The position numbers and the translations under genes are program-made. This document shows positions 1 through 42,691 of a DNA stretch of 64,000 nt, piece after piece. The notes beneath the pieces are model-generated. The model saw only the letters and a list, made by a program, of their open reading frames with translations, ran no database searches and had not been told where the DNA came from. This DNA is from a virus (lineage: Duplodnaviria > Heunggongvirae > Uroviricota > Caudoviricetes). Position 1 is the stretch's first letter; each line of letters begins with the position of its first letter. The DNA lies in the IMG/VR virus record IMGVR_UViG_3300033463_000001, positions 64,001-128,000 of that record; one strand, written 5' to 3'.

Positions 1-217
1 TGAACATATTGGTATATACACCCTCTTCATCAGCCGCAGCGTGCGCGTCCAAACTCTCAATAGAGATAAACGGAGGAAAGTCCGTTCCAGCCGTTTGACG
101 AATGGTCACGATAGCGTCAGGACTGAACGCTACCACGTTCTTTAGCAAACGGAGTAAATCTTTTGCAGAGATTTCTTTCATAATCTCCATGCTACTAAAT
201 GCTTGTTGTTGTGCCAT
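1..217 (-). CDS. hypothetical early protein (3' end runs off the window)
   Basis: ATG at 217 just downstream of promoter P1; open frame MAQQQAFSSMEIMKEISAKDLLRLLKNVVAFSPDAIV... to the window edge. Confidence 0.6.
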   Translation of the reverse strand, partial: MAQQQAFSSMEIMKEISAKDLLRLLKNVVAFSPDAIVTIRQTAGTDFPPFISIESLDAHAAADEEGVYTNMF

Positions 218-244
218 AGTTGTGATGATTTTCAAATTCGACCG

Positions 245-329
245 CAAAGGTATGTAAAATTTTTGACATACGCAAATTTTTGGCTAAAAATCGTTCGAAA
301 AACTTCAAATTGCAAAGTCCAGTTAGCAA
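245..329 (-). promoter_or_regulatory. early promoter cassette P1 (Bacteroidota sigma-A type plus upstream 20-bp operator)
   Basis: TACCTTTG at 245-252, TTTG at 273-276 (20-bp spacer), operator ttgcaaagt-cc-agttagcaa at 310-329. Confidence 0.85.
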
Positions 330-337
330 AAAAAGCA

Positions 338-508
338 CTACACGTCCGGTTTTTTATGTTTTACCTTACGTGTATATGCCTTCTTCGAAACCTCAACCTT
401 ATTGTGGTTAATTGGTTTCCCATGTGCAGCAATCTCTTCCTCACGGCTTTGTCTCCGTGCCGCCTTGATGATTGCCAATGTCTCCTTATTTGTCTTCGTC
501 ACTCGCAT
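338..508 (-). CDS. small basic protein, 56 aa, with an ArfA-like YxRKxKH tail
   Basis: Not in the ORF track. MRVTKTNKETLAIIKAARRQSREEEIAAHGKPINHNKVEVSKKAYTRKVKHKKPDV; its start overlaps the stop of the upstream gene. Confidence 0.65.
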   Translation of the reverse strand: MRVTKTNKETLAIIKAARRQSREEEIAAHGKPINHNKVEVSKKAYTRKVKHKKPDV

Positions 509-801
509 GGCTCTGGTTCGTTTTTTGTCTGGAATGCCAACGCACGCAAGGCAGCGAAGAACTCCGGCGAATTGAGAGGTGCGCTATTGCATAGACGTTC
601 TGCGCTACACATAGTCCGCAAATCTCCGATGAAGATATTACTCGTCTTCCATGCTTTCGCCAACTCAATAGCGTCCGACTTTGTGTCCGCATAGAAGAAC
701 ACGCGTGTCTTCGGTTTGAGGTTGGGAGTGATACGATATTCGCCCTCAACGTAGAAGAGGGTCTCGCCTGCGTCCGGCTTATTTACAAAGTAGTGTAGCA
801 T
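499..801 (-). CDS. hypothetical early protein
   Basis: ACTATG start context, fits the operon; contains a YADTKSDAIELAK segment like its neighbours. Confidence 0.7.
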   Translation of the reverse strand: MLHYFVNKPDAGETLFYVEGEYRITPNLKPKTRVFFYADTKSDAIELAKAWKTSNIFIGDLRTMCSAERLCNSAPLNSPEFFAALRALAFQTKNEPEPCE

Positions 802-835
802 AGTCTTTCAGTTACGTGTTATACAATTATGTTAA

Positions 836-1189
836 TTAGTCCTCATCTGCGTTCTCCGGCTTGATTTTGTCGAGGACGTGCTCCAATATGTCTGCGTAGT
901 CCGTGTACGGCTCACAAACGAGATAGACGTTACTCTTTGTGTCTCCCAAATCGTCCGAATAGACGGTCGCGTAGAGCGTGTCATTGACGAGGTTCAGTTT
1001 TAAGATTTCCACCAAGTAGTAGCCACTATTAAAAGCCGATGAGACAAATTGCGGTGCGTTATTACGCTCAAAGGTTATCTCTCCACCCAGTTCAGCAATG
1101 AGTGTCTCGCATGCCCTGCGAGTGTTACGTACTGCGGAATTGTAGGTTGCGATGAGGTTTTGACCTAACTTAAAAAGTGCCTTAATCAT
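836..1189 (-). CDS. hypothetical early protein
   Basis: 117-aa ORF tightly packed in the minus-strand operon. Confidence 0.7.
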   Translation of the reverse strand: MIKALFKLGQNLIATYNSAVRNTRRACETLIAELGGEITFERNNAPQFVSSAFNSGYYLVEILKLNLVNDTLYATVYSDDLGDTKSNVYLVCEPYTDYADILEHVLDKIKPENADED

Positions 1190-1234
1190 AGATAAAAATG
1201 TCGGTTGCCCTATACACCGAAAGGTCTTGCGTTA

Positions 1235-2020
1235 TTATTCCTCGTTGACATAGGAACGGAATGCGTCCCAAGAAAACTCCATGCTCGTTTCGCCACAAAG
1301 CGGCTCGCGGTGGCACATGTGGTTGATACCGAATGCGTCCTTGAAGAACGTGAACGTTGAACCGCTATGCCAACCAACGCAACCAAGTTCGTTGCCGTAG
1401 TGCTCCAAGCATAGTGCTGCGTATGGTGGTAAGCCGTTATCGCAGGCTCTCTTGCCTATTGCTATTCTCGCACGAAACTTATCTCCGTACTTATTACCGA
1501 GTATCTCGTTAGCCACCTTGACACATTCGTTCATCAAGTCTTCAATACTCGGCTCGGTAGCACCGCGAGCAATACGTGCCGCATTTGCCTTATTTTGCTC
1601 TGCTACCCATTTCTTAACGAAAGCCACAATAGCCGCACGTTGCTCATCAGTCAAGTCATGTTTCGCGTCTCTATGGAACGTTGCGTAGCCTTGTTTACAA
1701 TCGGTTGGGTCTTGCTCACATAGGGTCTGCTTTTTCCATGAGCGGTTTGTGATTTCAATGCTGAATGTAAATGCTCCCTTGCTCCATTCGTTAGTGCTGA
1801 CGCACCAATACATTTCCGAGACACCCCAATTCGTTGTGACACCATAGGAAGTCTCTTGCACCCTATACCCAAAGGCTGGGTTGAGAGATTGTAGGTTCAT
1901 GCGTCCGTTACGTCCGTCCAATCGTCCGGCAGTAGTGCCATAGAGTGATAGACCCGTGCGTGCGTCATACTTCTCCAAATTGATTGCACTCAATTCTTTT
2001 TTGAACTCTTCGTAAGTCAT
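1235..2020 (-). CDS. hypothetical early protein
   Basis: 261-aa ORF, first gene after promoter P2. Confidence 0.75.
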   Translation of the reverse strand: MTYEEFKKELSAINLEKYDARTGLSLYGTTAGRLDGRNGRMNLQSLNPAFGYRVQETSYGVTTNWGVSEMYWCVSTNEWSKGAFTFSIEITNRSWKKQTLCEQDPTDCKQGYATFHRDAKHDLTDEQRAAIVAFVKKWVAEQNKANAARIARGATEPSIEDLMNECVKVANEILGNKYGDKFRARIAIGKRACDNGLPPYAALCLEHYGNELGCVGWHSGSTFTFFKDAFGINHMCHREPLCGETSMEFSWDAFRSYVNEE

Positions 2021-2059
2021 AATCTATACGTGTTTTAGGGTTGAACTTCAAATCGAGTG

Positions 2060-2144
2060 CAAAGGTAAGTAAAAATTTTGATATATGCAAATTTTCGAGC
2101 AGAAAAATGCAAAAAATCTCATTTTTGCAATCTCTACTTTGCAA
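2060..2144 (-). promoter_or_regulatory. early promoter cassette P2
   Basis: TACCTTTG 2060-2067, TTTG 2088-2091, operator ttgcaatct-ct-actttgcaa 2125-2144. Confidence 0.85.
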
Positions 2145-2343
2145 TTTTCTTGTTTTTACTCTTCAACTCTTCCACAATCTCTCCCAGCAGACAACCGATG
2201 ATGAGAAAGAAGTTGAACCCAGCGACCAGCATGTTTGTCACTCCACTAATTATATCAGCGTTGGACAACTGATACAAACCGATGAAGATGAATATCAACG
2301 CGAGCAGTAGGTTTACCCAATAGTATTTGTACATGTACGGCAT
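2134..2343 (-). CDS. small two-TM membrane protein
   Basis: Two hydrophobic stretches and a basic C-terminus. Confidence 0.65.
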   Translation of the reverse strand: MPYMYKYYWVNLLLALIFIFIGLYQLSNADIISGVTNMLVAGFNFFLIIGCLLGEIVEELKSKNKKIAK

Positions 2344-2376
2344 AGTGATACGTATTAAAAGTGTTAGTGGTTAATA

Positions 2377-2706
2377 CTACATGAACAAACCCAAATACGG
2401 AGCGAAGTGCTCGCTGATGAGAGAGTTCAGTTTTGCTTCTTGCTTAATCTTCTCTGCGTAAGCCTTGCGGTCTTCCTCGCCCATGTCCATGTACTCCTGC
2501 AAGCGTCTGTTCCAATCTTCGAATTGGTTCAGTTTGTCTCGCATTTCCATTTTCTCCTGCTCGGCTTTCATAGCACGCGCGGAGAGTTCCTTGTTGCGCT
2601 GACGAAGACGTTCGATTTCCTCTTCCAATCGTTCCGTCTTCGCCTTGTACTGCGCAGCGAGTTTGTTACGCATGTTTGCCTCTATGGCTTTGCGTGTTTG
2701 TTTCAT
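2377..2706 (-). CDS. coiled-coil protein
   Basis: E/K/R-rich heptad pattern. Confidence 0.7.
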   Translation of the reverse strand: MKQTRKAIEANMRNKLAAQYKAKTERLEEEIERLRQRNKELSARAMKAEQEKMEMRDKLNQFEDWNRRLQEYMDMGEEDRKAYAEKIKQEAKLNSLISEHFAPYLGLFM

Positions 2707-2709
2707 AAC

Positions 2710-2910
2710 TTATGCGGTTACAATTTCATCGTCCGGCTGGTTGCTCCAATGGCAATCTCCGTTGTTATCAATGACGCGAATAGCGTCTTCCTCTGGGTTG
2801 CGCGCTGCGGCTTTTGCTTGTGCGTACTTGATAGCCGCAGCCTTGACCTTATAGACGTGGTTGATGAACTTACAATTCATTTCCACATAGAATTTTGTCG
2901 GTTTATCCAT
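2710..2910 (-). CDS. hypothetical early protein
   Basis: 66-aa ORF, ACTATG start, abuts its neighbours. Confidence 0.6.
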   Translation of the reverse strand: MDKPTKFYVEMNCKFINHVYKVKAAAIKYAQAKAAARNPEEDAIRVIDNNGDCHWSNQPDDEIVTA

Positions 2911-2923
2911 AGTGGCTGGAGTG

Positions 2924-3172
2924 TTAAAGGTTAATAATGTCGTTAATCAGACAAGTGTACGTGCTTTCGCTAATTTCATCAAACCCATAAGGCTCAAAAT
3001 CATTAACATATTCTTCTTTCCCATAAGGACAAGCGTGAACTCCGTCTTTGTCGGCATACTGCGCATAGTATCCGTCATAACTTTCTCCGTTCCAATTTCC
3101 GTCAATAGGAACATTACCACCGAAATCTACGCGACCTGCTTTTGCTTTCTCAATCAATTCTTGTTTACTCAT
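2924..3172 (-). CDS. small acidic protein (start revised to MSKQEL)
   Basis: The longer ORF-track start lies inside promoter P3; ATG at 3172 is downstream of it. Confidence 0.65.
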   Translation of the reverse strand: MSKQELIEKAKAGRVDFGGNVPIDGNWNGESYDGYYAQYADKDGVHACPYGKEEYVNDFEPYGFDEISESTYTCLINDIINL

Positions 3173-3235
3173 AAGAATAAGTGTTTTAAGGGTTATGCAT
3201 TGTTGCCGACAATGGTTCGTTGTTAAATTCGGCTG

Positions 3236-3320
3236 CAAAGGTAAGTAAAATTTTTGAATTATGCAAATATTTTGGTGAAAAAATGCAAAATTTCTTACTT
3301 TTGCAAAGTCAAGATAGCAA
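3236..3320 (-). promoter_or_regulatory. early promoter cassette P3
   Basis: TACCTTTG 3236-3243, TTTG 3264-3267, operator ttgcaaagt-ca-agatagcaa 3301-3320. Confidence 0.85.
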
Positions 3321-3356
3321 AATGGGGTGTTTTTGTATATGCACCCCATTCGCTTA

Positions 3357-3842
3357 TCACATGTGCAGACGCGTCTCCGAGATATAGAAAGTAGTGTGTT
3401 TCTCGTTATAGCGACCATTCAAATAGCACTCCCAATGGTTGAGCAAGCCGGTCTGCATATCGGTTGTCTTGCAGATAGTATAATCCTCATCATCTTCCTT
3501 AACGTCACACTCCCAAGTCTCTCCGCTTGCCAGCATTTCATTAACCTTGAACGTTAGGAACTCATAGGCTTTGTCCTTTGAGAGGAAGACACCAAGTGGT
3601 TGTGTGCTGGTCTCATCATCGACTGCGAAGTCCATGATTACCGCATAAGCCTTTGGGAATATATTCTTGTCGAACTCATCGTTAGCCGGAGTTTCGATAA
3701 GTGCCTGGTGTACCACCGCGCTGGACTGACCGGTCTCTTTCATAACCTGCTCGGCTATGTTGAGTGCTTCGACATGATTGGACGCATTAACCGGAAAGCG
3801 GTGTGTGAACTGATATGTTGTTTCTACCAAAAAAGTCTTCAT
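3357..3842 (-). CDS. acidic hypothetical protein with an N-terminal DpnD/PcfM-like segment
   Basis: Start revised to MKTFLVETTYQFTHRFPVNASNHVEALNIA. Confidence 0.65.
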   Translation of the reverse strand: MKTFLVETTYQFTHRFPVNASNHVEALNIAEQVMKETGQSSAVVHQALIETPANDEFDKNIFPKAYAVIMDFAVDDETSTQPLGVFLSKDKAYEFLTFKVNEMLASGETWECDVKEDDEDYTICKTTDMQTGLLNHWECYLNGRYNEKHTTFYISETRLHM

Positions 3843-3903
3843 AGGTCTTGAATATACTAAATTAAGTACAATAGGGTTCGTTGTTTGCGAGAGAGTGGGC
3901 GGT

Positions 3904-4179
3904 TTATACCAACCCACGTCTCATTAAGTCCATGCGCTTGGCGAGCCGTTCGCTTTGAAACCATTGTGGCTTACCCTCTTGGAGCGCACGATATTTGTCT
4001 GGGTACTGACGTGCCACCTCACGCTCGCACTTATGGGAGCAGCAGTAATCATCTTCACGTCTTTTCCGGAAGTGACGCTCGCATATCGGACAGATACATA
4101 CGGAGTCCACCGGACGCGCCACGTTATTGTTGATTACTCGGATTGCGAATGGAAGTTGTTCTTGCGACTTGTTAGCCAT
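3904..4179 (-). CDS. zinc-ribbon protein
   Basis: CPIC...CCSHKC motif. Confidence 0.65.
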   Translation of the reverse strand: MANKSQEQLPFAIRVINNNVARPVDSVCICPICERHFRKRREDDYCCSHKCEREVARQYPDKYRALQEGKPQWFQSERLAKRMDLMRRGLV

Positions 4180-4271
4180 AGTTGTGTACGATTGCCTTGT
4201 ATCATCGTGAGGTTGTTAGGGGTTGAGAAAAAAGGTGCACTTAATACGTGTCGTGCGCAACCTCCGGCGGC

Positions 4272-4613
4272 TTATGCCGTGTGCCGCCAATCGACATTGC
4301 GTGTGCCCTCGATGTCGAAGTCATTGACCCACTCGCAACCATTTTGATACCACTTACCGCTCTTGCGTGTGATACCTGCGCCCATAGCGTTCAGGCGGCT
4401 CTTGGTGGTGTTCGTTCCGCACGTCTCGCCCTCGCGTCTGCGTCCAGCGTCCGAAAACTCATAGGTCTTCGTCTTGCGGTCATAGGTGGCTATTAGGTGT
4501 CCGTGCAGGTACACACACGTTGTGTCTCCCTTGGTTGCCACTTGGGTGTTACCCTGCGAAAAGTTGCGTCCACTCTCGATAGCGTTCAGCATTGCAATTT
4601 CGATTTTCTTCAT
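4272..4613 (-). CDS. conserved phage hypothetical protein
   Basis: NT.V...VYLHG..IA...TTKSRLNA pattern, recalled from T4-like phage early genes. Confidence 0.7.
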   Translation of the reverse strand: MKKIEIAMLNAIESGRNFSQGNTQVATKGDTTCVYLHGHLIATYDRKTKTYEFSDAGRRREGETCGTNTTKSRLNAMGAGITRKSGKWYQNGCEWVNDFDIEGTRNVDWRHTA

Positions 4614-4687
4614 AGCGCGTTCATCAATTACCTATACATTGAGAGGTCTTAAAAGGGTTAATTGCCGTTGTTTCTCAAAAGCGAGTG

Positions 4688-4772
4688 CAAAGGTAAGTAA
4701 AATTTTTGACATACGCAAGTTTTTTGCCAAAATTCGTTCAAATTTCTTACTTTTGCAAAGTCGAGTTTACAA
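4688..4772 (-). promoter_or_regulatory. early promoter cassette P4
   Basis: TACCTTTG 4688-4695, CTTG 4716-4719, operator ttgcaaagt-cg-agtttacaa 4753-4772. Confidence 0.8.
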
Positions 4773-4790
4773 AATAGGGGTGTTTTGTAC

Positions 4791-5036
4791 CTAAATGCCG
4801 CATTCGTAGCGTGCGAGCGTCCGCATTCCGTCTTCCAGCGTAACGCATTTGGAGAGGTCTGGACTATACTCGCTATCGTCTGGGTCTCCGAGTGCCCCCA
4901 TAGCCGCACGGAAAATGTCCCTTATAGCAGTCTCCGATAGGTCATTTTGGTCATAGCGTTCCACCTCATCAAGGAAGTACTCAAACGACTGCTGCATGTC
5001 CACGCGTGTAATATGCACCAATTCCATTCTATCCAT
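4791..5036 (-). CDS. small acidic protein (start revised to MDRMELV)
   Basis: ATG with an A-rich upstream region; D/E rich. Confidence 0.55.
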   Translation of the reverse strand: MDRMELVHITRVDMQQSFEYFLDEVERYDQNDLSETAIRDIFRAAMGALGDPDDSEYSPDLSKCVTLEDGMRTLARYECGI

Positions 5037-5123
5037 GTTTATTTGCGTTTTAAGCGACTTTCGTTGTTTGGCTGATAAGTTGGCTTGCTGGGACTTAATC
5101 GTCCCACACAAGCCGTTTTGTGG

Positions 5124-5516
5124 TTAGCGGGCTGACATTTTAGATTTGGTCAGGTAGATACCGCATGGGGTGTCTTCCGTTATCTCGTCATAGTCCAGCA
5201 GTTTGGGTTCGCCCTCGTTGAGGAATGCAATGGTGTCATCCACCATTTCTTCCAGCGTGTTGAACTCATACTCATACTGCTTGACCTCTGCCTGCAACTC
5301 AATGATACGCGTCTTATAGTCTCCCTCGCGCTTGTCCGCCTGAACGTCCCTTATGAAGTCGGCGAGCGGCACGATACAGAATGTGAAGTCGGTGCGTACA
5401 TACGGAGCGTGTTCTATATCGTCCGTGAACGTGTGCAGAATGTGCATGTCCTTTGGTGCACCCTCTACTTGCTCAATGGAATAGAGGTCTCTCTCTAAAA
5501 AGTCTTGTTTGTTCAT
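5124..5516 (-). CDS. acidic hypothetical protein
   Basis: 130 aa, strongly D/E rich. Confidence 0.7.
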   Translation of the reverse strand: MNKQDFLERDLYSIEQVEGAPKDMHILHTFTDDIEHAPYVRTDFTFCIVPLADFIRDVQADKREGDYKTRIIELQAEVKQYEYEFNTLEEMVDDTIAFLNEGEPKLLDYDEITEDTPCGIYLTKSKMSAR

Positions 5517-5517
5517 A

Positions 5518-5775
5518 TCACTTCTTATCGTAAAAGTCGTTGGTGCTCGGTTTTACTACTACGGTAAACAAAATACCTGTTCCCAGCGCGAGGACAAGAG
5601 CGGTGTCCGCCTTGCGGTTCTTTCCGTGTTCCACGTACGCCACATATCTTTGCAGGGTCTCTTTGTTTCGGTTCATCAAGCGTTTCCAAACCTTTAGAAG
5701 TTGCTTTTCGTGAATGGGGTGGTTCTCCTGCTCGTAAGCGGCAATCAGTTGCTCAATCAATGCTTTCTTTGTCAT
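5518..5775 (-). CDS. small protein with a C-terminal hydrophobic segment
   Basis: ALVLALGTGILFTVVV; first gene after P5. Confidence 0.6.
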   Translation of the reverse strand: MTKKALIEQLIAAYEQENHPIHEKQLLKVWKRLMNRNKETLQRYVAYVEHGKNRKADTALVLALGTGILFTVVVKPSTNDFYDKK

Positions 5776-5921
5776 AGACGCAATGTTTTGAATGGTTAGT
5801 ACTCTGTCCGAGAAATGAGTTAGGGGTTTGAAACTTATTCCAGCGGGTGTTGTTATCCTTATCCTACTTTGCGGTGCTCAACTTTTCGCACACTTTCAAC
5901 GCTCATTCTCGAAATTGGGTG

Positions 5922-6006
5922 CAAAGGTAAGTAAAAAAATTGACATATGCAAATTTTTCAGCAAAAATCGTTCGAAAAACCTCAAATTGCAAAGTCCACT
6001 TGACAA
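5922..6006 (-). promoter_or_regulatory. early promoter cassette P5
   Basis: TACCTTTG 5922-5929, TTTG 5950-5953, operator ttgcaaagt-cc-acttgacaa 5987-6006. Confidence 0.85.
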
Positions 6007-6077
6007 AATGGGCACTTTTGTGGCAATAGGCGAGCGGTTTTTTGTCTCCGCTCACCTATCACAACCCCTTGCGGTGT

Positions 6078-6272
6078 TTAGTCTTCAACCTCAACTGCGT
6101 CAGGCGCACTATCTTCTTGCAGTCCGTCCAGCAGTTCCTTGATGTAGCACTCGCGCGCTGATTCCGCCTGCGCCAAATCAATTGCCTCTCTCTCGCTCTC
6201 CGCCTGCACGTTGATAGAGAGGTTCGTGTGGAAGTAAAGGGTGACGTTATACGTCTTCTTTTGCTTTGTCAT
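6078..6272 (-). CDS. small DpnD/PcfM-like acidic protein
   Basis: KTYNVTLYFHTNLSINVQAESEREAIDLA pattern. Confidence 0.6.
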   Translation of the reverse strand: MTKQKKTYNVTLYFHTNLSINVQAESEREAIDLAQAESARECYIKELLDGLQEDSAPDAVEVED

Positions 6273-6287
6273 AGTCCAAAAAAGATT

Positions 6288-6491
6288 TTAGTTATCGGTT
6301 TCAAATGTGCCGCAGGGACATTCAAGGTCTTCCTCAATATCTCCCACGTTGTCCTGAATGATGTAGTTCATGTAATCAGCACGAACCTTATCAACTGCCA
6401 ACTCTGCCGCCTTATCGGCTGCGCTCTCGTTGTCCTCAACAACAACGCGCGTTGTAATGACCAAAGTCACAAGTAATGCTTTCTTTGCCAT
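6288..6491 (-). CDS. small acidic hypothetical protein
   Basis: LVTLVITTRVVVEDN...A..A; acidic C-terminus. Confidence 0.65.
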   Translation of the reverse strand: MAKKALLVTLVITTRVVVEDNESAADKAAELAVDKVRADYMNYIIQDNVGDIEEDLECPCGTFETDN

Positions 6492-6503
6492 AGCCGTATA
6501 GAA

Positions 6504-6980
6504 TTAAAATTTAGTCCACCAAAATTCCGTACCCATGAGGGTTTCCGTATAGTCCTTGCACCACTCGTCAAAGCGACCTTGATTCTCCAGAATGTCAAGG
6601 AAGAGCATAGGAGACCAGTCCAGCCGCTTGTTCATAAAATCGTGGCTCGCGCTTACCCAATGCGTTTTCTCCTTTGCGTCATAGTGAATATAGAGGAAAC
6701 TATCAGCAGGGACTACAACGCGTTTCTCTGCGTCAAAGAATGGGAGCAGAATGGGTCGGCACAAATGGTTCGCGTCCTTTGGGTTCGGCTCAAACTCTGG
6801 ATAGTGTTTCTCAAACCACTCATAGACGAGGTGCTGGCTTTCTATCTTGCTGACGAAGTTCTCGTCATGCCGTTTGGCTGCCTGCGACACGTACGTGTGT
6901 GTGTTCAGGCGTTCCTTGATACTTTCTACTGCGCGCAATGCTCTCAAATGCTCGCTCGGAAGACATAAATGGATAGTCAT
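6504..6980 (-). CDS. hypothetical early protein
   Basis: 158 aa, first gene after P6. Confidence 0.7.
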   Translation of the reverse strand: MTIHLCLPSEHLRALRAVESIKERLNTHTYVSQAAKRHDENFVSKIESQHLVYEWFEKHYPEFEPNPKDANHLCRPILLPFFDAEKRVVVPADSFLYIHYDAKEKTHWVSASHDFMNKRLDWSPMLFLDILENQGRFDEWCKDYTETLMGTEFWWTKF

Positions 6981-7006
6981 AATCGTAGGGTGTTAAAATT
7001 CGGCTG

Positions 7007-7091
7007 CAAAGGTATGTATTTTTTCTGACATACGCAAATTTTTAGCCGAAAAAGTGTTAAAAAACTCAATTTTGCAAACTCTACTTTGCAA
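7007..7091 (-). promoter_or_regulatory. early promoter cassette P6
   Basis: TACCTTTG 7007-7014, TTTG 7035-7038, operator ttgcaaact-ct-actttgcaa 7072-7091. Confidence 0.85.
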
Positions 7092-7097
7092 ATGCCT

Positions 7098-7175
7098 CTA
7101 TCGTGCTGGGGTGCTGCACAATGCTCCAACTGCGAGGAATGTGCATACAATTGCCAATAAAATTTTGATAGCCAT
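7098..7175 (-). CDS. 25-aa hydrophobic peptide
   Basis: MAIKILLAIVCTFLAVGALCSTPAR, ACTATG start. Confidence 0.4.
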   Translation of the reverse strand: MAIKILLAIVCTFLAVGALCSTPAR

Positions 7176-7179
7176 AGTG

Positions 7180-7311
7180 TCAAAACATTTCGTTATAGTC
7201 AACTCGTTCGTCCTCTGGGTCGCGTCCGAACTGCCGGTGGTCAAAGCGACTTGATGTACCTCCCCACCACCATTCTTCGGTCTCTCTACCCTCATAGTGT
7301 GTTGTTACCAT
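7180..7311 (-). CDS. 43-aa acidic peptide
   Basis: Not in the ORF track. MVTTHYEGRETEEWWWGGTSSRFDHRQFGRDPEDERVDYNEMF, ACAACTATG start. Confidence 0.5.
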   Translation of the reverse strand: MVTTHYEGRETEEWWWGGTSSRFDHRQFGRDPEDERVDYNEMF

Positions 7312-7402
7312 AGTTGTACGTGTTTATACTAAATTAAGTACATTTGTGGTATGGGTGGGAACACGAACCCAACTTGTGAGTTCGCATTCCCTTTCTCAAC
7401 CC

Positions 7403-7960
7403 TTATTGAGCGACCTGCAACTTGCGTGCGCCCTGCTCAATGTATTGCAGACTTTCGAACTTGTAGTCGCGCACCACTACTTCGTCTTCTCCACTCAACC
7501 CTGCTGCGAGTTGCTTTGCCGATTGAGCCTTTGCAGGAATGTACGATAGTATATCGTCAAGGGTCTTTTGGTCGGTTACGACCTTTCCGTCCAACTCATA
7601 TAGGACATTCGCATGTGTGTTAGCACGCATGGTGGTGCGCAGGTACTTCTGCTCCGGGTCCTTGTCGGCACACAAAATAAGGTTATTGATTACCCATGTG
7701 CGCCCTGACGGCTTTTCCACCTGATATTCGGTGTCCATGCCTGCGCGCTCCAAGCGGTTGCGGACCGTGTTGCCAAAGTTGTAACATAGTGCCACATTGA
7801 CCAAGCGCGTGACCTTGCGGACGCGACCGATATAGGGGTTCGCGGTCTTGCGCATGTTGGGTTCGGTTGATGTAATGATAGTTACACCAAAGGTCGCAGG
7901 GGTTAAGGACTTAACGAAGTTGATTACTCGTTCTTGTTGTGCAGCACTCATAGTTGCCAT
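7403..7960 (-). CDS. conserved large-phage hypothetical protein
   Basis: TEPNMRKTANPYIGRVRK motif; first gene after P7. Confidence 0.75.
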   Translation of the reverse strand: MATMSAAQQERVINFVKSLTPATFGVTIITSTEPNMRKTANPYIGRVRKVTRLVNVALCYNFGNTVRNRLERAGMDTEYQVEKPSGRTWVINNLILCADKDPEQKYLRTTMRANTHANVLYELDGKVVTDQKTLDDILSYIPAKAQSAKQLAAGLSGEDEVVVRDYKFESLQYIEQGARKLQVAQ

Positions 7961-8050
7961 AGTCTTTGCGAGCGGTCAGGCACTCGCGCCATTAAGTAAA
8001 ACAAAGGTTGTTCAGTTCTCGCAGGGACACTCCCTAACTGAAATCGAGTG

Positions 8051-8135
8051 CAAAGGTAAGTAAAAAAATTGACATATGCAAATTTTTCAGCAAAAATCGT
8101 TCGAAAAAGTGAATTTTGCTAACTCTACTTTGCAA
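8051..8135 (-). promoter_or_regulatory. early promoter cassette P7
   Basis: TACCTTTG 8051-8058, TTTG 8079-8082, operator ttgctaact-ct-actttgcaa 8116-8135. Confidence 0.85.
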
Positions 8136-8155
8136 AATGGGGTCTTTTGTGCCGG

Positions 8156-8410
8156 TTAGTCCGTCCTATTGACTATCTCTAACTCCCAAGAGATTTTGTC
8201 CACATGGTCGCTTATTGCATGCATGATACGCACACATTCGGCTTGCACATCAGCACCCAGTCCGTCAGCGGCAAATACCGCTCCGTCTTCACACCAATTG
8301 ACAAACGGCTCGCCACCATTCCGGCACACCACGTTATTCTCAATCATGTTGATTAGTTGATTAGCAACGCACACACACGCAATTGCCTTGTAATCGGTCA
8401 TAGTTTCCAT
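8156..8410 (-). CDS. hypothetical early protein (start revised to METMTDY)
   Basis: Lies downstream of P8. Confidence 0.6.
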   Translation of the reverse strand: METMTDYKAIACVCVANQLINMIENNVVCRNGGEPFVNWCEDGAVFAADGLGADVQAECVRIMHAISDHVDKISWELEIVNRTD

Positions 8411-8441
8411 TTGAACCACGTTTTTAGTTTGAAATCGGCTG

Positions 8442-8617
8442 CAAAGATACAAAAAAAATTTGATATATGCAAGTTTTTGAGTAAAAAAATTTTATGTTGT
8501 AAAACATGTTTTTTCGTAAGTCGTTGTGTTTCAGCCGGTTACGTTGTTTGGCGCACAAGAAAAAAATGAAAAAATGCAGACGGGTATTGCATATATGAAA
8601 AAAATTGCTTACCTTTG
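8442..8617. promoter_or_regulatory. divergent promoter pair P8 (-) and P9 (+) with a central imperfect palindrome
   Basis: P8: TATCTTTG 8442-8449, CTTG 8470-8473. P9: ATTG 8586-8589, TACCTTTG 8610-8617. cgtaagtcgttgtgtttcagccggttacg at 8515-8543. Confidence 0.75.
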
Positions 8618-8678
8618 CAGGCGAAATCGGTAACGAGACCGATGATGACCCTATTATTCATTATAAACGCATACGCAC

Positions 8679-8810
8679 ATGAAAGCGAAAGACATGGCAA
8701 AAATTCTCATGGAGCACCCAGATGCAGAGGTGGCTACCTACGGCATTCGTGGCAACGTGGAAAGCCACAATTTAATTTTCAACGGAGTGAATTGGTGGAT
8801 AGGCGCATAG
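8679..8810 (+). CDS. 43-aa peptide
   Basis: Not in the ORF track. MKAKDMAKILMEHPDAEVATYGIRGNVESHNLIFNGVNWWIGA, directly after P9. Confidence 0.6.
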   Translation: MKAKDMAKILMEHPDAEVATYGIRGNVESHNLIFNGVNWWIGA

Positions 8811-8851
8811 CCGGAGCGACCCAGAGACAAAATAGGGCAATAGACCCTGTT

Positions 8852-8936
8852 TTGTCAACTGGACTTTGCAAAATGAACTTTTTCAGCACTTTTTTGCGTG
8901 AAAATTTGTATATTTGAAAAAAAATACTTACCTTTG
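8852..8936 (+). promoter_or_regulatory. early promoter cassette P10
   Basis: Operator ttgtcaact-gg-actttgcaa 8852-8871, TTTG 8905-8908, TACCTTTG 8929-8936. Confidence 0.85.
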
Positions 8937-9001
8937 CACAAAATTTGACACGAACCCCTTTTAGAGGTGCAGGCAACACCATAAACACCGCCCCAATACC
9001 T

Positions 9002-9448
9002 ATGGTACGCAATATCTTCAAAGTCGCTGGACACGCTTACGAGTACACCACCAACACCACACGCTCGCACTATTCCACCACCGAGCACGCAACGCTCTAC
9101 CGAGACGGAAACGAGGTCTCTCATGGTACGGACACGTGGCTCAATCGTCCATGGTACGCTTACCGATACCAAAACGCTATCTCTGCCGCAGTCCGCAATT
9201 TCTTCCAAGAGTTAGCAGACCAAGCAGTAGCAGAGTGGAAGACCACCAACGGCAAAAGAGCCATTCCAAGAGCCGTTCGCGAAGAGGTCGAAGAGCCGTT
9301 CCTCGTTGTGGCGCACAAGTTAATGACCAAGATTAACACCGCCAACGGAGTGAGCACACACAAACGCGAGACCCTCAAACAACGAAGGGCAAGGCTCGCA
9401 AGAGAGGAACGAGCAAAGGCGAAAGCCATGAAGGCGCAAGCCAAGTGA
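9002..9448 (+). CDS. phage hypothetical protein with a basic C-terminus (start revised to MVRNIF)
   Basis: ATLYRDGNEV...NRPW.AY.YQ pattern; follows P10. Confidence 0.7.
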   Translation: MVRNIFKVAGHAYEYTTNTTRSHYSTTEHATLYRDGNEVSHGTDTWLNRPWYAYRYQNAISAAVRNFFQELADQAVAEWKTTNGKRAIPRAVREEVEEPFLVVAHKLMTKINTANGVSTHKRETLKQRRARLAREERAKAKAMKAQAK

Positions 9449-9451
9449 ACC

Positions 9452-9600
9452 GGAACGTGGGGAGGGACAGACACCCCTCCCCATGTCCTCCACCGGAGAC
9501 CCCTCCCCATGTACCCCCTCCCTGCGTAACCCCTACCGGAGGAGGGCGGTTTTGGGGGCCGTCATTTGGGGCGGACTGTTGGCCATAAAAATTTTTTGGG
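9452..9600. repeat. C/G-run repeat element at the end of the early segment
   Basis: ACCCCTCCCCATGT at 9473-9486 and 9499-9512, inverted copy acgtggggaggg at 9455-9466, further C and G runs, then aaaaatttttt. Confidence 0.75.
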
Positions 9601-10508: not shown

Positions 10509-12074
10509 ATGGATAATTTGAAGCAAAGTAACGGCCAACCAATGGAACAGGACTACATAGACAACAATTACACCCCGGACGGAATTAAGTTCTTCGGGGA
10601 GAAACACCTATGGACTGACCCGGATGCACTGCCGTTCGTATACCTAACCTTCAACGGTATCAATAAACTATTCATCGGTGACTACGGAACGAATCACCAC
10701 AAGATACACCAAGGCGACATCCGTAAGTACATGGAGGAACATGGTATGGAATATCAATGGATTGACCTGTAGCATCGCAAGAACAGGTGGTCGCATGATA
10801 TTGAGGTGGATGGCCGGGTGTGGCGCCTGATTCCTGATGCCAATAGGACACCAAGCAATGTTTTCTCATTCTGGAGTATTGGAAAGGAGATGGACGCTGG
10901 CCTGGTGAAACTGGTTGTTGACATGGTTGTTAAGGCGTTGCACATAGAAGACCAACCTATTTATATTTCGTCCGGGAGCGACGTGGTTCCATACGAAAAT
11001 GTCGGTGTTAACATAGCCGATAATGGAAATGTGTATGCGTCACACCTGCTTCCTCCTGAAAAGAAAAGAGAAGCAACTTCGGACTTTCGCAGTGCAAGAG
11101 ATAGCCGGCTTGGTAAAAAACTGACAATGTCCAACGGAAGCGAAATGACAATGGCACAATACAGAGCGCTGAAACAAACAAGTGAAAATACAATAAAAAA
11201 CATGGATAGAATACAAGGACTCCAGACAATAGTCAACGAAGCCATAACGTGCGTACTCAATGAGGCACCGGCTAAGAATGGTGACGGTTACTACATTGGC
11301 TTCGCATCACAGTTCTACACATTGTGGTACATCACCACAGTACACATCGTAGACAAGCGCGAGGAATACGACCTGACGAGGTTTAGTTATATCTGCAACC
11401 TGTCACATGACTTAGAACAGGCGAAGAGGAACGCAGAGCGTCGTGGCGTGGAAATCATCGCAGTTAACCCGGAACTAAGAGGTACACACTCTTGGGAAAG
11501 CCGCAGCAATGTCAAGGAGAAACTGGAGTTTAGTCCGGATAAGTATCAGTTTGGCAAGTGGGCTGGACAATACCTGTCATTCGGAGATGGCGACTACATG
11601 CTGTGGTACTACGACCAAATCATCAATAGCCCGTACTATGCGGAGAATAGGAAAGAGGTTGAGAAAATCCTACTGGATAACGGCTACCACATGGTGGACG
11701 GACGCGCAGTGAGCGATGAGGTTTATCAGTCAATGATTCAAAAACAGACTGATGCAGACAACGCGAAACAACTCATAGACTCCGGAGAGCCTATTGATGT
11801 CATTGCTCAGTCCAACCTCAAGGACGGATATCCGGAAGACTTTACATATTGTCGTGCAACATTAGGCAGCGAGCCAAGTGACAAATATATATGGTTACAC
11901 TTCAAAGAGTTCAAAGAGATGGTCTACCAGGGATTCCCGTACTACCTACCGGTTATCAATGGCAAGGCAAAGCGTATTAAGAATAAGGCATTGCGCATAG
12001 ACTCGTACACATACGTAGGAGATGCTGCAGACGGAATGCCGGCTATTGAAGTTCACTCATTTACTATGCTGTAA
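10509..12074 (+). CDS. multi-domain putative head-internal protein interrupted by one in-frame TAG (10770-10772)
   Basis: ORFs 10506-10772 and 10806-12074 are in the same frame with only this stop between them; internal IVNEAITCVLNE tag; FGKWAG motif. Confidence 0.55.
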
Positions 12075-38761: not shown

Positions 38762-40633
38762 ATGATTGAAGATTTAAAACAAATAGGATTTGAATACGCT
38801 AAGTGCTATAACGACAAAAGCAGGATTTACCTTATCGAGCATTACTTCACAACGAACAATGCCGGTGTGGTAACTCCTTTCTTGTTATTCCCAAGGCAGA
38901 AAGCATTCCTACATAGCCTAGCAGAATATAACAAAACAATAGCAATCAAGCCTCGTCAGGCCGGTATTACAACTACTACTGCAGCATGGACGGCAAGTCA
39001 GATTATCATGGCAGGAATGAACGCCCCGGAGACAGTATTGTGTATTGCAAACAAGCTTGAGATGGCGCAAGATATGCTCAAGAAAATAGAAGCATTCCTA
39101 GAACAGGCTCCAAGGTGGTTGTGGGGAAATAATGAATACTACTCCACAGACCCAACTTCAGAAAAAAACAAGCAGCCAATCTTTATTCGTCAAAACAGCA
39201 AAGAGTTGCTTTTGTTTAATGGATGTCGTGTCGTTGCAAAATCTTCAAAAGAAAATGCTGCGCGTGGTGTGTCTGCAGTATCTATCCTAATTCTGGATGA
39301 GGCAGCATTTATTGAAAACGGTAAAGATGTTTATGCTTCTGCAGTTGCTGCTACGGCATCTGTGAAAAACGCACGTATCGTCATGGTGTCAACTCCAAAC
39401 GGTAAAGACGCTTTGTACTATGACACATATGAGAAAGGTCTCGATAAAGTTAACGGTTATAATGTTGTTGAATTCCGGTGGTACCAAGACCCACGTTTCA
39501 ACAAATACCTTACATGGCATAAAACCAACGAGGAGACTGGCGAAGTTGAAGTTATTGCAGAGCCTACAATCGGCAACGATGGTACAATACCATATGATGA
39601 AGAGAAGTGGCACGACCTCGTACAGGATGGTTGGAAGCCAAGTTCTCCGTGGTACGTTTCTATGTGCGAATCGTTCAATAACAACTCGATTAAAATTGCA
39701 CAAGAGCTTGATGTATCATTCCTTGGTTCTAGCGCAACAGTATTGCCGTCTGACACAATAGAGATGCAACGCAACACAAACATGCGTGACCCGATTACTG
39801 AGATGTCCGACCCGCTCGTTCCTGAGATGTGGTTCTGGAAGCCTCCAATAGAAGGTCATAAATACATTGTATGCTGCGACCCGTCTCGTGGCGACTCATC
39901 AAGCGCCGATAACACAGCAATCGAAATTATCGACATGAATGGTGTCGATGAAAACGGTATGCCGATTATCGAGCAGGTGGCCGAATACGTAGGTAAGCGT
40001 CCTGGTGATGAAATAGGTGAGATGCTGTATACATATGGCAAACTCTACAACGATGCGTTGATAATTGTCGAGGCAATCGGTGGTGTTGGAGACCCGGCGC
40101 TTATTATGCTTCAACGTATGGGATACACCAACCTGTATTTCGACGATGAGAACCTTAAAACATATGTTTCTCAGACTGACACGTATAGGTACAAAGCTGT
40201 TGGTGGCGACCCGAATAAAGTTCCTGGTTGGCGCTCAAACTCGTATCGTATGCAGATGCTTACGAATTTTGCTACAATGGTTAAAACAAACCAGTACAAG
40301 ATACGTTCTATCCGCACGATACACGAATTAGAGACGTGGGTATTTAAGAATGGGCGCCCAGACCATATGAACGGCCAACACGACGATACAATTACAAGTA
40401 CAGCAATGGGTTTATTCGTGTTGATATACTCAATCAACAAGTCTAACTCGTCAATCGAAAAGGATAAGGCCATATTGAGCGCCTATGTAACAACTAGTCA
40501 TGCTACAAGCACGCAAGCGAACTACAGGACATATGTATCGAGCATAAGTGCTCGCCCGAATAATACCATCTACACGACAACATCCAGTAAGAAAAACGGT
40601 GGAAATGTGTACGCTTGGTTATTTGCTAGGTAG
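38762..40633 (+). CDS. terL: terminase large subunit (T4 gp17-like)
   Basis: LFPRQ, KPRQAGITT, ILDEAAFIE, VSTPNG, nuclease DPSRGD...HDD. Confidence 0.95.
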   Translation: MIEDLKQIGFEYAKCYNDKSRIYLIEHYFTTNNAGVVTPFLLFPRQKAFLHSLAEYNKTIAIKPRQAGITTTTAAWTASQIIMAGMNAPETVLCIANKLEMAQDMLKKIEAFLEQAPRWLWGNNEYYSTDPTSEKNKQPIFIRQNSKELLLFNGCRVVAKSSKENAARGVSAVSILILDEAAFIENGKDVYASAVAATASVKNARIVMVSTPNGKDALYYDTYEKGLDKVNGYNVVEFRWYQDPRFNKYLTWHKTNEETGEVEVIAEPTIGNDGTIPYDEEKWHDLVQDGWKPSSPWYVSMCESFNNNSIKIAQELDVSFLGSSATVLPSDTIEMQRNTNMRDPITEMSDPLVPEMWFWKPPIEGHKYIVCCDPSRGDSSSADNTAIEIIDMNGVDENGMPIIEQVAEYVGKRPGDEIGEMLYTYGKLYNDALIIVEAIGGVGDPALIMLQRMGYTNLYFDDENLKTYVSQTDTYRYKAVGGDPNKVPGWRSNSYRMQMLTNFATMVKTNQYKIRSIRTIHELETWVFKNGRPDHMNGQHDDTITSTAMGLFVLIYSINKSNSSIEKDKAILSAYVTTSHATSTQANYRTYVSSISARPNNTIYTTTSSKKNGGNVYAWLFAR

Positions 40634-40690: not shown

Positions 40691-42691
40691 GTGGCAAATA
40701 AGACTTTGACAATATATCAACGGATGGACAGAGTCCTTAACGCTGATTCTCCCGCAGACAGAAGTGAACCACGTCGCGTCAACACGTACAACATTACACC
40801 GAGTGTGTCAGACGATATCCTTTATCGCACAGACAACAAAGAAGAGTACGACCTTAAAAAGTTGACGATGCAGCAGGATGCATTCCTTGCTCGCCAGTGG
40901 AAAACTTCAAGTCACAACATCTCTGCTAAGCAACAGCTTAACGGACTTACGTTGCTGAACCTGATGTATCGCGACGCTGACCTCATGGATACATTCCCTG
41001 AGATTGGTGCTGCATTGACGTTATATTCAGACGAAGCAACCACACTCGACCAGCAAGGTAAGATGTTTAATATCACATCTTCTTCGCCACGAGTTAAAGC
41101 AATCCTTGAGGACTTGTTTGTTAAACGGCTCAACTTGAACGTATGGGCGCCGCGTATTATCCGTAACATGTGTAAATACGGTAACACGTATATGCTCATG
41201 AAGATGCAAAGTAATCGAGGCGTTGAAGCATGGCGTGAGATGCCGGTATATGAGATGCAACGTAATGAAGATGGCGTATCTCCGTACTGGTACAGCAACG
41301 ATAATGCCAAGAATGATAAAAGTACTAAGGTTCCGTCGACGACATTCGTTTGGATGGGTAACACGGACGGCCAAACTCCGGCTAGTGAGTTTAAGGATTG
41401 GCAAATAGCGCACTTCCGTATTCTCACAGATTCTGTTTTCTTACCGTACGGGCAATCCATATTAAACTGCGCGCGTAGGCATTTTAGGATGCTCTACATG
41501 ATGGAGGACTCCATGCTCATCTACCGCCTCGACCGGTCTATTGAGCGCCGAGTATTCAAAGTATATGTTGGTGGCATCGATGATAAAGACGTTCCGGCTT
41601 ACGTTGACCAAGTTATTAACCAAACAAAGCGTGGTTCTATTATTGACCCACAGACCGGACAAATCGACATTCGCAAAAACTGGGCTTCTGTTGTAGATGA
41701 TTACTACATCCCGGTTCGCGACATGAACGCACCTAACCCGATTGAGACATTGCAAGGAGCACAGAACCTTACTGCCATAGACGACATAAAGTTCATGCAA
41801 AACAAAGTGTTCACGGCACTGCGTGTACCGAGGGCATTCTTGAGCTTTGACGAGTCTACCGGAGAAGGTAAAAACCTTGCTATGATGGACGTTCGCTTCG
41901 CGCGTGCTGTCAATAGGATTCAGTTGGCATTCATCGAGGAGTTGACACGTGTTGCAATTATCCACCTCATACTTCTTGGTCTCAAGGATGAGCTCACCAA
42001 TTTCTCTATATCAATGAACAACCCGTCATCTCAGGCTGACACTCTTGCATGCGAATTGATGCAAAAGAAACTCAGCTTGGTAAGGGATGCGGTTCAAGAT
42101 AACGGAAACGGCATACAAACGCTGTCACTGCAACGCGCGTTGAAGATGTTCCTTAACTTCTCCGAGGAAGATATTAAAGAAAACTTTAATGAGATACGTC
42201 TTGAGAAAGCACTTGCCGAGGAATTGAATAAGACGCCTGAGATTATTAAACGCACACATATCTTCGACCCGGTTGATAGGCTGTATGGCGAACCAGGTGC
42301 TGAATATTCAAGCGCTGGTGGTGAAGATGGAGATGGCGGTCCTGGTGGAGCACCTGGCGGAGGAGGCGGTGGCTTCGGAGGCGGAGGTGACTTCGGTGGC
42401 GGGCTAGACGCAATCTCTGGTGATGAAGGTGCCGGTGAAGTAACAGGCGAAGAGGGCGAAGCACCAATGGGTGAAGTAACTCCTGCCGGAATGGCTCCTG
42501 AAGCACCAGCACCTGGAAATCCAGGAGAGACTACAGCTCCTGAACCTCCGGTAAATCCGAATGAGGGTAAAAAACCAAAGGGAAATGGTAAACTACTCAC
42601 AGAGGATAAAGTTCTCTTAGATACCAAGAATCTCATGCAGAACGCTTTTACCGAAATGATTAGTGAAATCGACAAACAAATAGAAAGCTAA
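40691..42691 (+). CDS. portal protein (T4 gp20-like)
   Basis: PYGQSIL, MEDSMLIYRL.R..ERRVF..VG, DYYIP.R, IETL.GAQNL, ALRVP; Gly/Pro acidic tail. Confidence 0.93.
   Translation: MANKTLTIYQRMDRVLNADSPADRSEPRRVNTYNITPSVSDDILYRTDNKEEYDLKKLTMQQDAFLARQWKTSSHNISAKQQLNGLTLLNLMYRDADLMDTFPEIGAALTLYSDEATTLDQQGKMFNITSSSPRVKAILEDLFVKRLNLNVWAPRIIRNMCKYGNTYMLMKMQSNRGVEAWREMPVYEMQRNEDGVSPYWYSNDNAKNDKSTKVPSTTFVWMGNTDGQTPASEFKDWQIAHFRILTDSVFLPYGQSILNCARRHFRMLYMMEDSMLIYRLDRSIERRVFKVYVGGIDDKDVPAYVDQVINQTKRGSIIDPQTGQIDIRKNWASVVDDYYIPVRDMNAPNPIETLQGAQNLTAIDDIKFMQNKVFTALRVPRAFLSFDESTGEGKNLAMMDVRFARAVNRIQLAFIEELTRVAIIHLILLGLKDELTNFSISMNNPSSQADTLACELMQKKLSLVRDAVQDNGNGIQTLSLQRALKMFLNFSEEDIKENFNEIRLEKALAEELNKTPEIIKRTHIFDPVDRLYGEPGAEYSSAGGEDGDGGPGGAPGGGGGGFGGGGDFGGGLDAISGDEGAGEVTGEEGEAPMGEVTPAGMAPEAPAPGNPGETTAPEPPVNPNEGKKPKGNGKLLTEDKVLLDTKNLMQNAFTEMISEIDKQIES

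What the first reader, a model, noticed from the sequence alone, without database searches (positions are those of the whole stretch)
1..9556. Restriction-site desert over the early segment, with a sharp boundary
Seen by eye: no GGCC, AGCT, CTAG or CTNAG in 1-9556, although AGCC, GGCT, CCGG, GCGC, TCGA and ACGT are common and any 4-mer is expected a few tens of times in 9.5 kb. The sites return right after the C/G-run element: GGCC at 9557, 9581, 9955, 10533, 10812 and 10899, CTGAG at 9980, AGCT at 10271 and many times in the MCP gene. Known: phage T5 injects a site-poor first segment before the rest of its genome. Inference: this segment meets host restriction enzymes unprotected and expresses anti-restriction or takeover proteins from strong host promoters, while the rest enters later or is shielded. 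That suggests staged entry in a T4-like jumbo phage.
Basis: partly seen in the sequence, partly recalled or inferred. Interest (0 to 1): 0.85.

Follow-up and report, generated by a model that had tools for sequence, protein, structure and literature searches.

The report
Tiered restriction-site desert, gut jumbo phage
A 24-26 kb block of early genes in a giant rumen virus, and the matching block in nine relatives, has been cleared of about 25 DNA words that bacterial restriction enzymes cut, in nested steps that start at one conserved sequence; this block is probably the repeated genome end that enters the cell first and must survive until the host is disarmed.

Summary
Confirmed, and larger than reported. 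Window 1-9556 has no GGCC, AGCT, CTAG or CTNAG (14-26 each expected). It is the right part of a 24-26 kb desert in a 327-kb rumen jumbo phage with Bacteroidota-type promoters. About 25 restriction-type words are avoided. Codon shuffles do not explain this (27 sites against 303), and differences between strains avoid creating sites.

The desert is nested. All words vanish at the C/G element (window ~9545); seven return after 12 kb, the others after 23-28 kb. Contig depth over the desert is 1.7-1.9 times the flank, which points to a long terminal repeat ending near the element. Nine related genomes or loci have their own desert starting at a similar element, with other words and few shared genes.

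Best reading (0.6): the element is the genome end that enters first and entry runs leftward, so the DNA right of the boundary enters last, not next. A T5-like stop at the element is the main rival (0.2). Entry order is inferred, not shown, and no anti-restriction gene was recognised inside the desert. The principle is known from T5 and T7-like phages, and this scan noted similar deserts in other phages.

The parts
1..9545 (.). Inner tier of the restriction-site desert, as far as it lies in the window. The inner tier continues to about window -2,700 (genome 61.3 kb) and the outer tier to about -14,700 to -18,200 (genome 49.3-45.8 kb). Probably inside a long terminal repeat.
   Evidence: depth
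9458..9630 (.). Conserved boundary element: C-rich tract on the desert side, then GGG(C/G)..ACAGTT-type core, an AAAATTTTT tract and a GG.CCAC motif. Candidate terminase cut region and genome end.
   Evidence: densest G4/C4-run window of the genome; same layout at the sharp desert edge of relatives; kept in other strains
234..345 (-). Bacteroidota-type promoter (TTTG..TAnnTTTG) with 24-bp operator-like palindrome, copy 1 of 7 minus-strand copies in the window
2049..2160 (-). promoter plus operator, copy 2
3225..3336 (-). promoter plus operator, copy 3
4677..4788 (-). promoter plus operator, copy 4
5911..6022 (-). promoter plus operator, copy 5
6996..7107 (-). promoter plus operator, copy 6
8040..8151 (-). 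promoter plus operator, copy 7
8429..8490 (-). leftward promoter nearest the element, without its own operator copy
8587..8625 (+). rightward promoter-like copy at the divergence point
   Evidence: (inverted repeats I7-I12)
8838..8946 (+). rightward promoter plus operator, in front of the 148-aa gene
338..8410 (-). Array of 18 short leftward ORFs (55-261 aa), several acidic, almost all without a family name; 4272-4613 is Kyano_Gp96 / phrog_554
7403..7960 (-). 185-aa protein found within 1-7 kb of the element in five relatives; confident model (pLDDT 97) with a weak Sm/Hfq/WYL-like barrel match (Z 6.5, rmsd 2.8, 70 aligned); function not shown
9002..9448 (+). 148-aa basic protein, last gene before the element; no relative found outside this phage species at near length
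38762..40633 (+). Terminase large subunit, T4 gp17-like (context: head module on the non-desert side)
40691..42691 (+). Portal protein (context)
50950..52737 (+). Major capsid protein (context)

Best explanation
The desert is the first-entering part of a long terminal repeat. The packaged chromosome has a fixed end at the C/G element and carries at least 19.6 kb, probably 24-28 kb, left of it twice. On infection that end enters first and the DNA follows leftward, slowly or in steps. Host RNA polymerase transcribes the early genes from about 20 host-type promoters. Until their products disarm the cell, host restriction enzymes can cut what is inside, so selection has removed their sites. Selection is broadest next to the end and drops in steps: one set of words matters for 12 kb, another for 23-28 kb, and GATC and GGNCC for the whole genome. 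The rest enters in the order tRNA and middle genes, then head and other late genes, and keeps its sites. SHOWN: the desert, its tiers, current selection on it, the promoter and operator array with the same extent, 1.7-1.9-fold depth, recurrence with the element in relatives. INFERRED: fixed ends, which end enters first, slow or stepped entry, restriction enzymes as the agent, and the disarming proteins.
For: Many avoided words match type II specificities (own knowledge of REBASE: AluI, HaeIII, BfaI, DdeI, HinfI, HpyCH4III, Hpy99I, NlaIV, ScrFI, BsaJI, TspRI, SfaNI, HpyAV, EcoRV, BccI, FokI, HphI); words. Not codon bias. Against a second strain, substitutions that make or break a core site number 27 against 78 by chance (inner), 35 against 70 (outer), 105 against 97 and 49 against 43 (flanks); for inner-only words 14 against 25 (inner) and 37 against 35 (outer). 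Depth: desert contigs 47.6-53.5 against 30.7 (run X1) and 78.5-93.8 against 44.9 (X2, same sample); 5.8-7.2 against 3.9-5.0 (X3); 4.2-7.5 against 3.3 (X4). If the ratio is at most 2, the step lies in window 8.1-12.5 kb. Depth is flat from genome 54 to 72 kb. Depleted words per 6 kb going away from the element: 28, 23, 13, 8, 0, and 0 on the other side; all 19 words depleted at 18-24 kb are also depleted at 0-6 kb, not the reverse; held-out test 125 against 260 sites, 295 expected. Desert plus element in G001-G006, G009, L195, L199. Leftward from the element the order is early genes, tRNA cluster..., head genes last, which is T5's order read from its entering end. Four contigs end in or within 100 nt of the element on the desert side (weak). 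A T4-type terminase with a 22.5-kb terminal repeat has a precedent in phage CBB (PMC5259590).
Against: No raw reads: ends and the exact depth step were not mapped, and contig depth is one figure per contig in metagenomes; X1 and X2 are one sample and may be the source of this DNA. The decline away from the element is clear in G000, G001, G009 and G006, flat in G003, and absent in G002, G004 and G005. Promoters next to the element point toward it in G001 and G009, so RNA polymerase cannot pull the DNA in throughout the family. ArdA (286 kb) and the clear SAM lyase (144 kb) lie outside the desert; nothing inside is a recognised anti-restriction protein. T4 itself packages by headful with permuted ends. 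The host and its methylome are unknown. The three motif sets were chosen after seeing the data.
Confidence: 0.6

Rival explanations
1. T5 geometry, closest to the first reader. The repeat enters from its left end (near genome 46-49 kb) and halts at the C/G element, which acts as an injection stop and is also the far terminus. Everything right of window 9556 stays in the head until the host is disarmed.
For: The layout resembles T5's first-step segment: mostly leftward genes, divergent promoters, a few rightward genes, then a non-coding stretch with repeats at the edge. In T5 the stop signal lies at the inner end of the repeat. A stop explains a sharp edge. G002, G004 and G005 show no decline away from the element.
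Against: A segment that waits whole in the cytoplasm should be purged evenly and end sharply at the left terminus. Instead the left edge depends on the word (11-13 kb, 23-25 kb, 26-28 kb) while depth is flat to at least 54 kb. Head genes would enter right after the stop and the tRNA cluster last, the reverse of T5. No DnaA box at the element, no A1, A2 or dmp homologue.
Confidence: 0.2
2. Exposure without ordered entry. The whole genome enters fast, but most of it is shielded (bound protein, membrane, a compartment or an unrecognised base modification), and only the early block is left open to host RNA polymerase and therefore to host nucleases.
For: The 18 operator-bearing promoters span exactly the desert (48.3-72.9 kb). 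No tested result shows entry order.
Against: It does not predict an edge fixed on a depth step and a terminus-like element. No C5, N4/N6, D12 or Dam methyltransferase, QueC, PurZ-type or thymidylate-synthase-type gene was found in G000; other routes are not excluded.
Confidence: 0.12
3. Foreign island or compositional effect: the block came from a phage that avoids these words genome-wide, or reflects its own codon and base usage.
For: GC 45-46% against 42% elsewhere; early genes turn over quickly between relatives.
Against: Markov and codon-shuffle controls fail to explain it; present-day strain differences avoid making sites; nine relatives have a desert at the same element with other words and mostly other genes.
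Confidence: 0.03
4. The words are targets of the phage's own early nucleases, which destroy host DNA while only the desert is inside the cell.
For: Proposed for T5 A1 (10.1101/866236); fits any first-entry geometry.
Against: About 25 unrelated words, differing between relatives, would need many nucleases; none was recognised among 56 early proteins.
Confidence: 0.05

Closest known systems
First-step-transfer DNA in the ~10-kb terminal repeat of T5 and BF23 (Tequintavirus; PMC10644984, 10.1101/866236)
   Same: Terminally repeated early block under host promoters; only sites inside it matter for restriction; gene order early block, tRNAs, late genes when read from the element.
   Different: 24-50 kb rather than 10 kb; nested tiers; T4-type terminase and head proteins; Bacteroidota-type promoters; no A1, A2 or dmp homologue; no DnaA boxes; a pause was not tested.
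Early-injected region of T7 and Murciavirus (Autographiviridae; PMC12455610)
   Same: Restriction selection concentrated on the first-entering DNA; in G000 nearly all promoters point away from the proposed entering end.
   Different: Far larger, many more words, mostly type II-like; no Ocr recognised; promoters point toward the element in G001 and G009, so transcription-driven entry is not general.
Long terminal repeats of jumbo myoviruses CBB (22.5 kb, T4 gp17-like terminase; PMC5259590) and XacN1 (66 kb; PMC5852040)
   Same: Repeat recognised by doubled read depth; in CBB it holds short ORFs.
   Different: CBB's repeat shows no comparable desert, so a long repeat alone does not produce one.
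Leading region of conjugative plasmids (depleted in restriction targets, as summarised in PMC12455610)
   Same: Target avoidance confined to the first-transferred DNA.
   Different: Single-stranded conjugative transfer, not phage ejection.

Membership tests
T5-type first-step-transfer system | Early block lies in a long direct terminal repeat | tested here: inconclusive
   Contig depth 1.7-1.9-fold over genome 54-72 kb, step within window 8.1-12.5 kb; supportive, but ends not mapped
T5-type first-step-transfer system | Restriction-type sites depleted in the block and kept elsewhere | tested here: met
T5-type first-step-transfer system | Host-type pre-early promoters confined to the block | tested here: met
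   18 operator-bearing promoters, all in 48.3-72.9 kb; sequence match only
T5-type first-step-transfer system | A1, A2 and dmp genes | tested here: not met
   tblastn of six T5 first-step proteins against nine genomes: no hit at E<=0.01; remote homologues not excluded
T5-type first-step-transfer system | Injection stop signal with DnaA boxes | tested here: not met
   No consensus DnaA box between genome 38.7 and 89.2 kb; the same pattern finds four in T5's repeat
T5-type first-step-transfer system | Injection halts until early proteins are made | not testable with these tools
   needs a cultured phage and host
T7-type transcription-coupled entry | Early promoters point away from the entering end | tested here: inconclusive
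   True for G000, G004, G005; opposite next to the element in G001 and G009; entering end itself inferred
T7-type transcription-coupled entry | Anti-restriction gene (Ocr or SAM lyase) among the first genes | tested here: inconclusive
   None recognised in the G000 desert; weak SAM-lyase-like gene just past its far edge; SAM lyase 15 kb from the element in G001, weak one 8 kb in G002
T4-like jumbo phage | gp17-type terminase, gp20-type portal, gp23-type capsid protein | tested here: met
   (terminase 22-26% identical to those of cultured phages)
T4-like jumbo phage | Headful packaging with circularly permuted ends, as in T4 | tested here: inconclusive
   A local depth step and a fixed desert argue against permutation; ends not mapped

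The most novel reading that the evidence does not exclude
A widespread family of gut jumbo phages delivers its genome from a fixed end in several steps (about 12 kb, then about 12-14 kb more in this phage; up to about 50 kb in a relative), and each step is released only after early proteins have neutralised one class of host nucleases. The tiers would then show which uncharacterised genes block which restriction enzymes, including ordinary type IIP enzymes, for which few inhibitors are known.
Probability: 0.2. Interest if true: 0.88.

Novelty: new variant of a known kind. Interest (0 to 1): 0.64.

Why it matters
The sequence alone appears to give the genome end, the likely entry order and the list of host restriction specificities for an uncultured, common family of 300-380 kb gut phages. 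It extends leading-region avoidance from T5 and T7-like phages to phages with a T4-type terminase, where headful packaging was expected to make it irrelevant (PMC12455610). How T5-like phages protect later DNA from type II enzymes is still open (PMC10644984). Here about 47 unnamed early genes, sorted by tier, are candidates for such inhibitors and can be tested one by one in laboratory strains.

Tried and rejected
Searches of viral contigs with the single 185-aa protein, the single terminase and the promoter-operator pattern found nothing; a terminase alignment was needed. The first read-laying run failed; the second gave contigs only, so no read starts or ends (table 6 empty). CviJI-type RGCY avoidance is rejected: AGCC and GGCT are common. 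A phage methyltransferase set matching the words is rejected for G000: none found; the 'methyltransferase' PHROG hit is the SAM-lyase-like gene. The 332-aa acidic protein gave no usable Atlas match. The 185-aa model had no Foldseek match in PDB, only unnamed viral proteins in BFVD, and middling Sm-like matches; this neither names nor excludes a function. G008 (92-kb fragment) gave no clear desert or element. CBB's terminal repeat shows no desert. A left end varying between 54 and 62 kb as the cause of the inner tier is rejected because depth is flat there. Bipartite type I-like motifs were not resolved; the list was swamped by the short words. No cis element was seen at the inner edge near 61.3 kb. 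Literature searches found no report of this feature in gut jumbo phages; the library is incomplete. One paper look-up used a wrong id and gave nothing.
Full report
1. The observation. The counts are exact. A trinucleotide Markov model of the segment expects 13.8, 26.3, 18.2 and 22.2. The window is 64,001-128,000 of a 327,393-nt record whose ends overlap by about 240 nt. The best holders of this DNA are bovine gut metagenomes. It encodes a T4 gp17-like terminase, a portal and a major capsid protein at window 38.8-52.7 kb.

2. True extent. The desert continues upstream. A two-change-point fit gives genome 49.3-73.5 kb, and no other part of the genome comes close. About 25 words are avoided: AGCT, CTAG, GGCC, ACNGT, GANTC, CGWCG, CTNAG, GGNNCC, CCNGG, CCNNGG, CASTG, TCWGA, GATATC, and the asymmetric GCATC, GAAGG, CTTGAG, GAAGC, ACGCC, CCCG, CCATC, GGATG, GGTGA, ACAG, ATCC. 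Many are type II restriction specificities (own knowledge of REBASE; not checked against a host). GATC is absent from the whole genome and GGNCC is at 18% of expectation everywhere. CCGG, GCGC, ACGT, CATG, GTAC and GCNGC are not depleted; TCGA is mildly low in the codon shuffle.

3. It is selection, and it still acts. Shuffling synonymous codons gives 303 and 380 sites for 18 words in inner and outer desert genes against 27 and 39 observed; genes outside give 612 against 665. A second strain (59-kb contig, 95-98% identical) has the same desert and tiers. Substitutions between the strains that make or break a core site number 27 against 78 expected (inner) and 35 against 70 (outer), but 105 against 97 and 49 against 43 in the flanks. 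The null under-counts control words, so the test is conservative.

4. The desert is nested and anchored at one end. Measured from the element (genome 73,545; window 9545), seven words return at 11.2-12.8 kb and the others at 22.9-27.8 kb. CCATC is 1 against 33 and GGTGA 4 against 42 in the inner and outer halves. Without choosing motifs, the number of strongly depleted words per 6 kb is 0, 0, 0 outside and 28, 23, 13, 8, 0 going in. All 19 words depleted at 18-24 kb are also depleted at 0-6 kb; the reverse fails. Inner-only words picked on 0-6 kb give 125 sites at 6-12 kb and 260 at 12-18 kb, 295 expected. The right edge is sharp within 250 bp.

5. Anatomy. About 47 short ORFs lie in the desert, nearly all leftward, many acidic. 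They follow about 20 copies of a promoter with the Bacteroidota consensus TTTG..TAnnTTTG (consensus from own knowledge). Eighteen copies carry a 24-bp palindrome at a fixed distance, and all 18 genome-wide copies lie between 48.3 and 72.9 kb, so this promoter class has the extent of the desert. Pfam, PHROG and PADLOC name almost nothing there. ArdA is at 286 kb and a clear SAM lyase at 144 kb; a weak SAM-lyase-like gene lies in the first operon beyond the far edge. No methyltransferase or common base-modification gene was found in this genome.

6. Depth suggests a terminal repeat. Contigs inside the desert have depth 47.6-53.5 in run X1 and 78.5-93.8 in X2; the contigs that start at window 8079 and run right have 30.7 and 44.9. 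Two other samples show the same direction at low depth. An 8,494-nt contig that I place at genome 53.9-62.4 kb by its promoter copies has 50.4 and 78.5, so depth is flat across the inner edge. With the step at the element the ratio is 1.72 and 1.87; if the ratio cannot exceed 2, the step lies within window 8.1-12.5 kb. Doubled depth is how the repeats of CBB and XacN1 were recognised (PMC5259590, PMC5852040). The left end of the repeat is not located. X1 and X2 are one sample and may be the source of this DNA. Four contigs end in or just inside the element (L140, L143, L202, L206), while eight others from these sets cross it; G/C runs also break assemblies, so this is weak.

7. It is a family trait. 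A terminase alignment gave relatives at 46-56% identity. G001 (380 kb, desert 146-195 kb), G002 (18-37 kb), G003 (314-334/340 kb), G004 (0.4-34 kb), G005 (87-114 kb), G006 (154-199 kb), G009 (54.5-77 kb), L195 and L199 each have a desert. In each it begins at a G/C-run element; in G000, G001, G003, G004, G005 and G009 this is the densest such window of the record, and the layout is shared. The head module is always on the non-desert side. The words differ between phages and few genes are shared; a 185-aa protein recurs within 1-7 kb of the element. G001 has a many-step staircase (about 10-13, 23-25, 31-32, 41-42, 47-50 kb) and G009 two steps. The decline away from the element is not universal: G003 is flat, and G002, G004 and G005 are not strongest next to it. 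Promoters next to the element point toward it in G001 and G009.

8. Mechanism. Established: in T5 and BF23 only sites in the first-entering repeat allow restriction (PMC10644984), and the same was shown for Murciavirus (PMC12455610). Inferred here: the block is what meets host nucleases unprotected. Two geometries fit a fixed edge. In A the element is the end that enters first. In B it is an injection stop, as in T5, whose segment has a similar gene layout. A explains why every word's desert starts at the element and ends at its own distance, with flat depth, and it gives T5's order: early block, tRNA cluster (genome 37-42 kb), late genes last. B explains the sharp edge, but predicts even purging, a sharp left end and head genes entering second; no DnaA boxes or A1, A2, dmp homologues were found. 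I put A at 0.6, B at 0.2, shielding without ordered entry at 0.12, own nucleases at 0.05 and a foreign island at 0.03. Whether entry is continuous or stepped is open; the two near-equal steps are unexplained.

9. Novelty. The principle is known. I found no paper on it in gut jumbo phages or on nested tiers. Earlier unchecked notes of this scan describe similar deserts in freshwater and marine jumbo phages and a small gut phage; they are not independent support. What this case adds is depth evidence for a terminal repeat, a conserved boundary element, the tiers and the strain-level test. Verdict: real, a new variant of a known kind, interest 0.64.

Noticed in passing
genome 48.3-72.9 kb (window copies at 308, 2123, 3299, 4751, 5985, 7070, 8114, 8850): A 24-bp palindrome sits exactly 64 nt from the start of the promoter match in all ten copies measured; 18 copies, none outside the desert; three similar copies in the G004 desert. 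Candidate site for a phage regulator that shuts off or drives this promoter class.
   Followed up: partly
L001:744-1133 (genome 44,744-45,133): Weak SAM-lyase-like gene (PF23780 under cut-off, DUF3574) in the first operon beyond the far edge of the desert; clear SAM lyases at genome 144 kb, in the middle of the G001 promoter array and twice in G008.
   Followed up: partly
genome 286,080-286,742: ArdA anti-restriction gene far outside the desert; also in G003.
   Followed up: no
L001:4342-4415 (genome 48,342-48,415): A lone tRNA-Arg(CCT) near the far edge of the desert; single tRNA calls also lie inside the deserts of G001, G002, G006 and G009 (8-16 kb from the element).
   Followed up: no
whole genome; G001, G003, G005, G009: GATC is completely absent from these records, whereas G004, G006 and G008 keep some; G001 has also lost GGCC, CGWCG, CTTGAG and GAGGAG genome-wide.
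   Followed up: no
genome 150-155, 254-259 kb: Milder local dips in site density and GC, holding several copies of a paralogous 130-aa gene family that also has one member in the desert (51,348-51,740).
   Followed up: no
L001:10416-10922 (genome 54,416-54,922): Glucosaminidase-family protein with an N-terminal hydrophobic stretch among the early genes; also in the early block of L195.
   Followed up: no
window 7403-7960: Family of at least 391 clusters with no Pfam name, folding confidently into an Sm/Hfq/WYL-like barrel with insertions; also in huge phage LR756508.
   Followed up: partly
window 18587-20671 and 31203-33629: A Schlafen group 3 helicase-like gene and a Clp-type AAA+ ATPase gene on the minus strand among rightward genes.
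   Followed up: no
window 10509-12074: Split into two ORFs here but one 510-aa gene in other strains: a frameshift or stop in this strain or assembly.
   Followed up: no
G005:145446-146405: An adenylosuccinate-synthetase-family gene in one relative; whether it is PurA or PurZ was not examined.
   Followed up: no
genome 38.7-89.2 kb: No consensus DnaA box in this 50-kb stretch, against 45 in the genome; may be chance.
   Followed up: no
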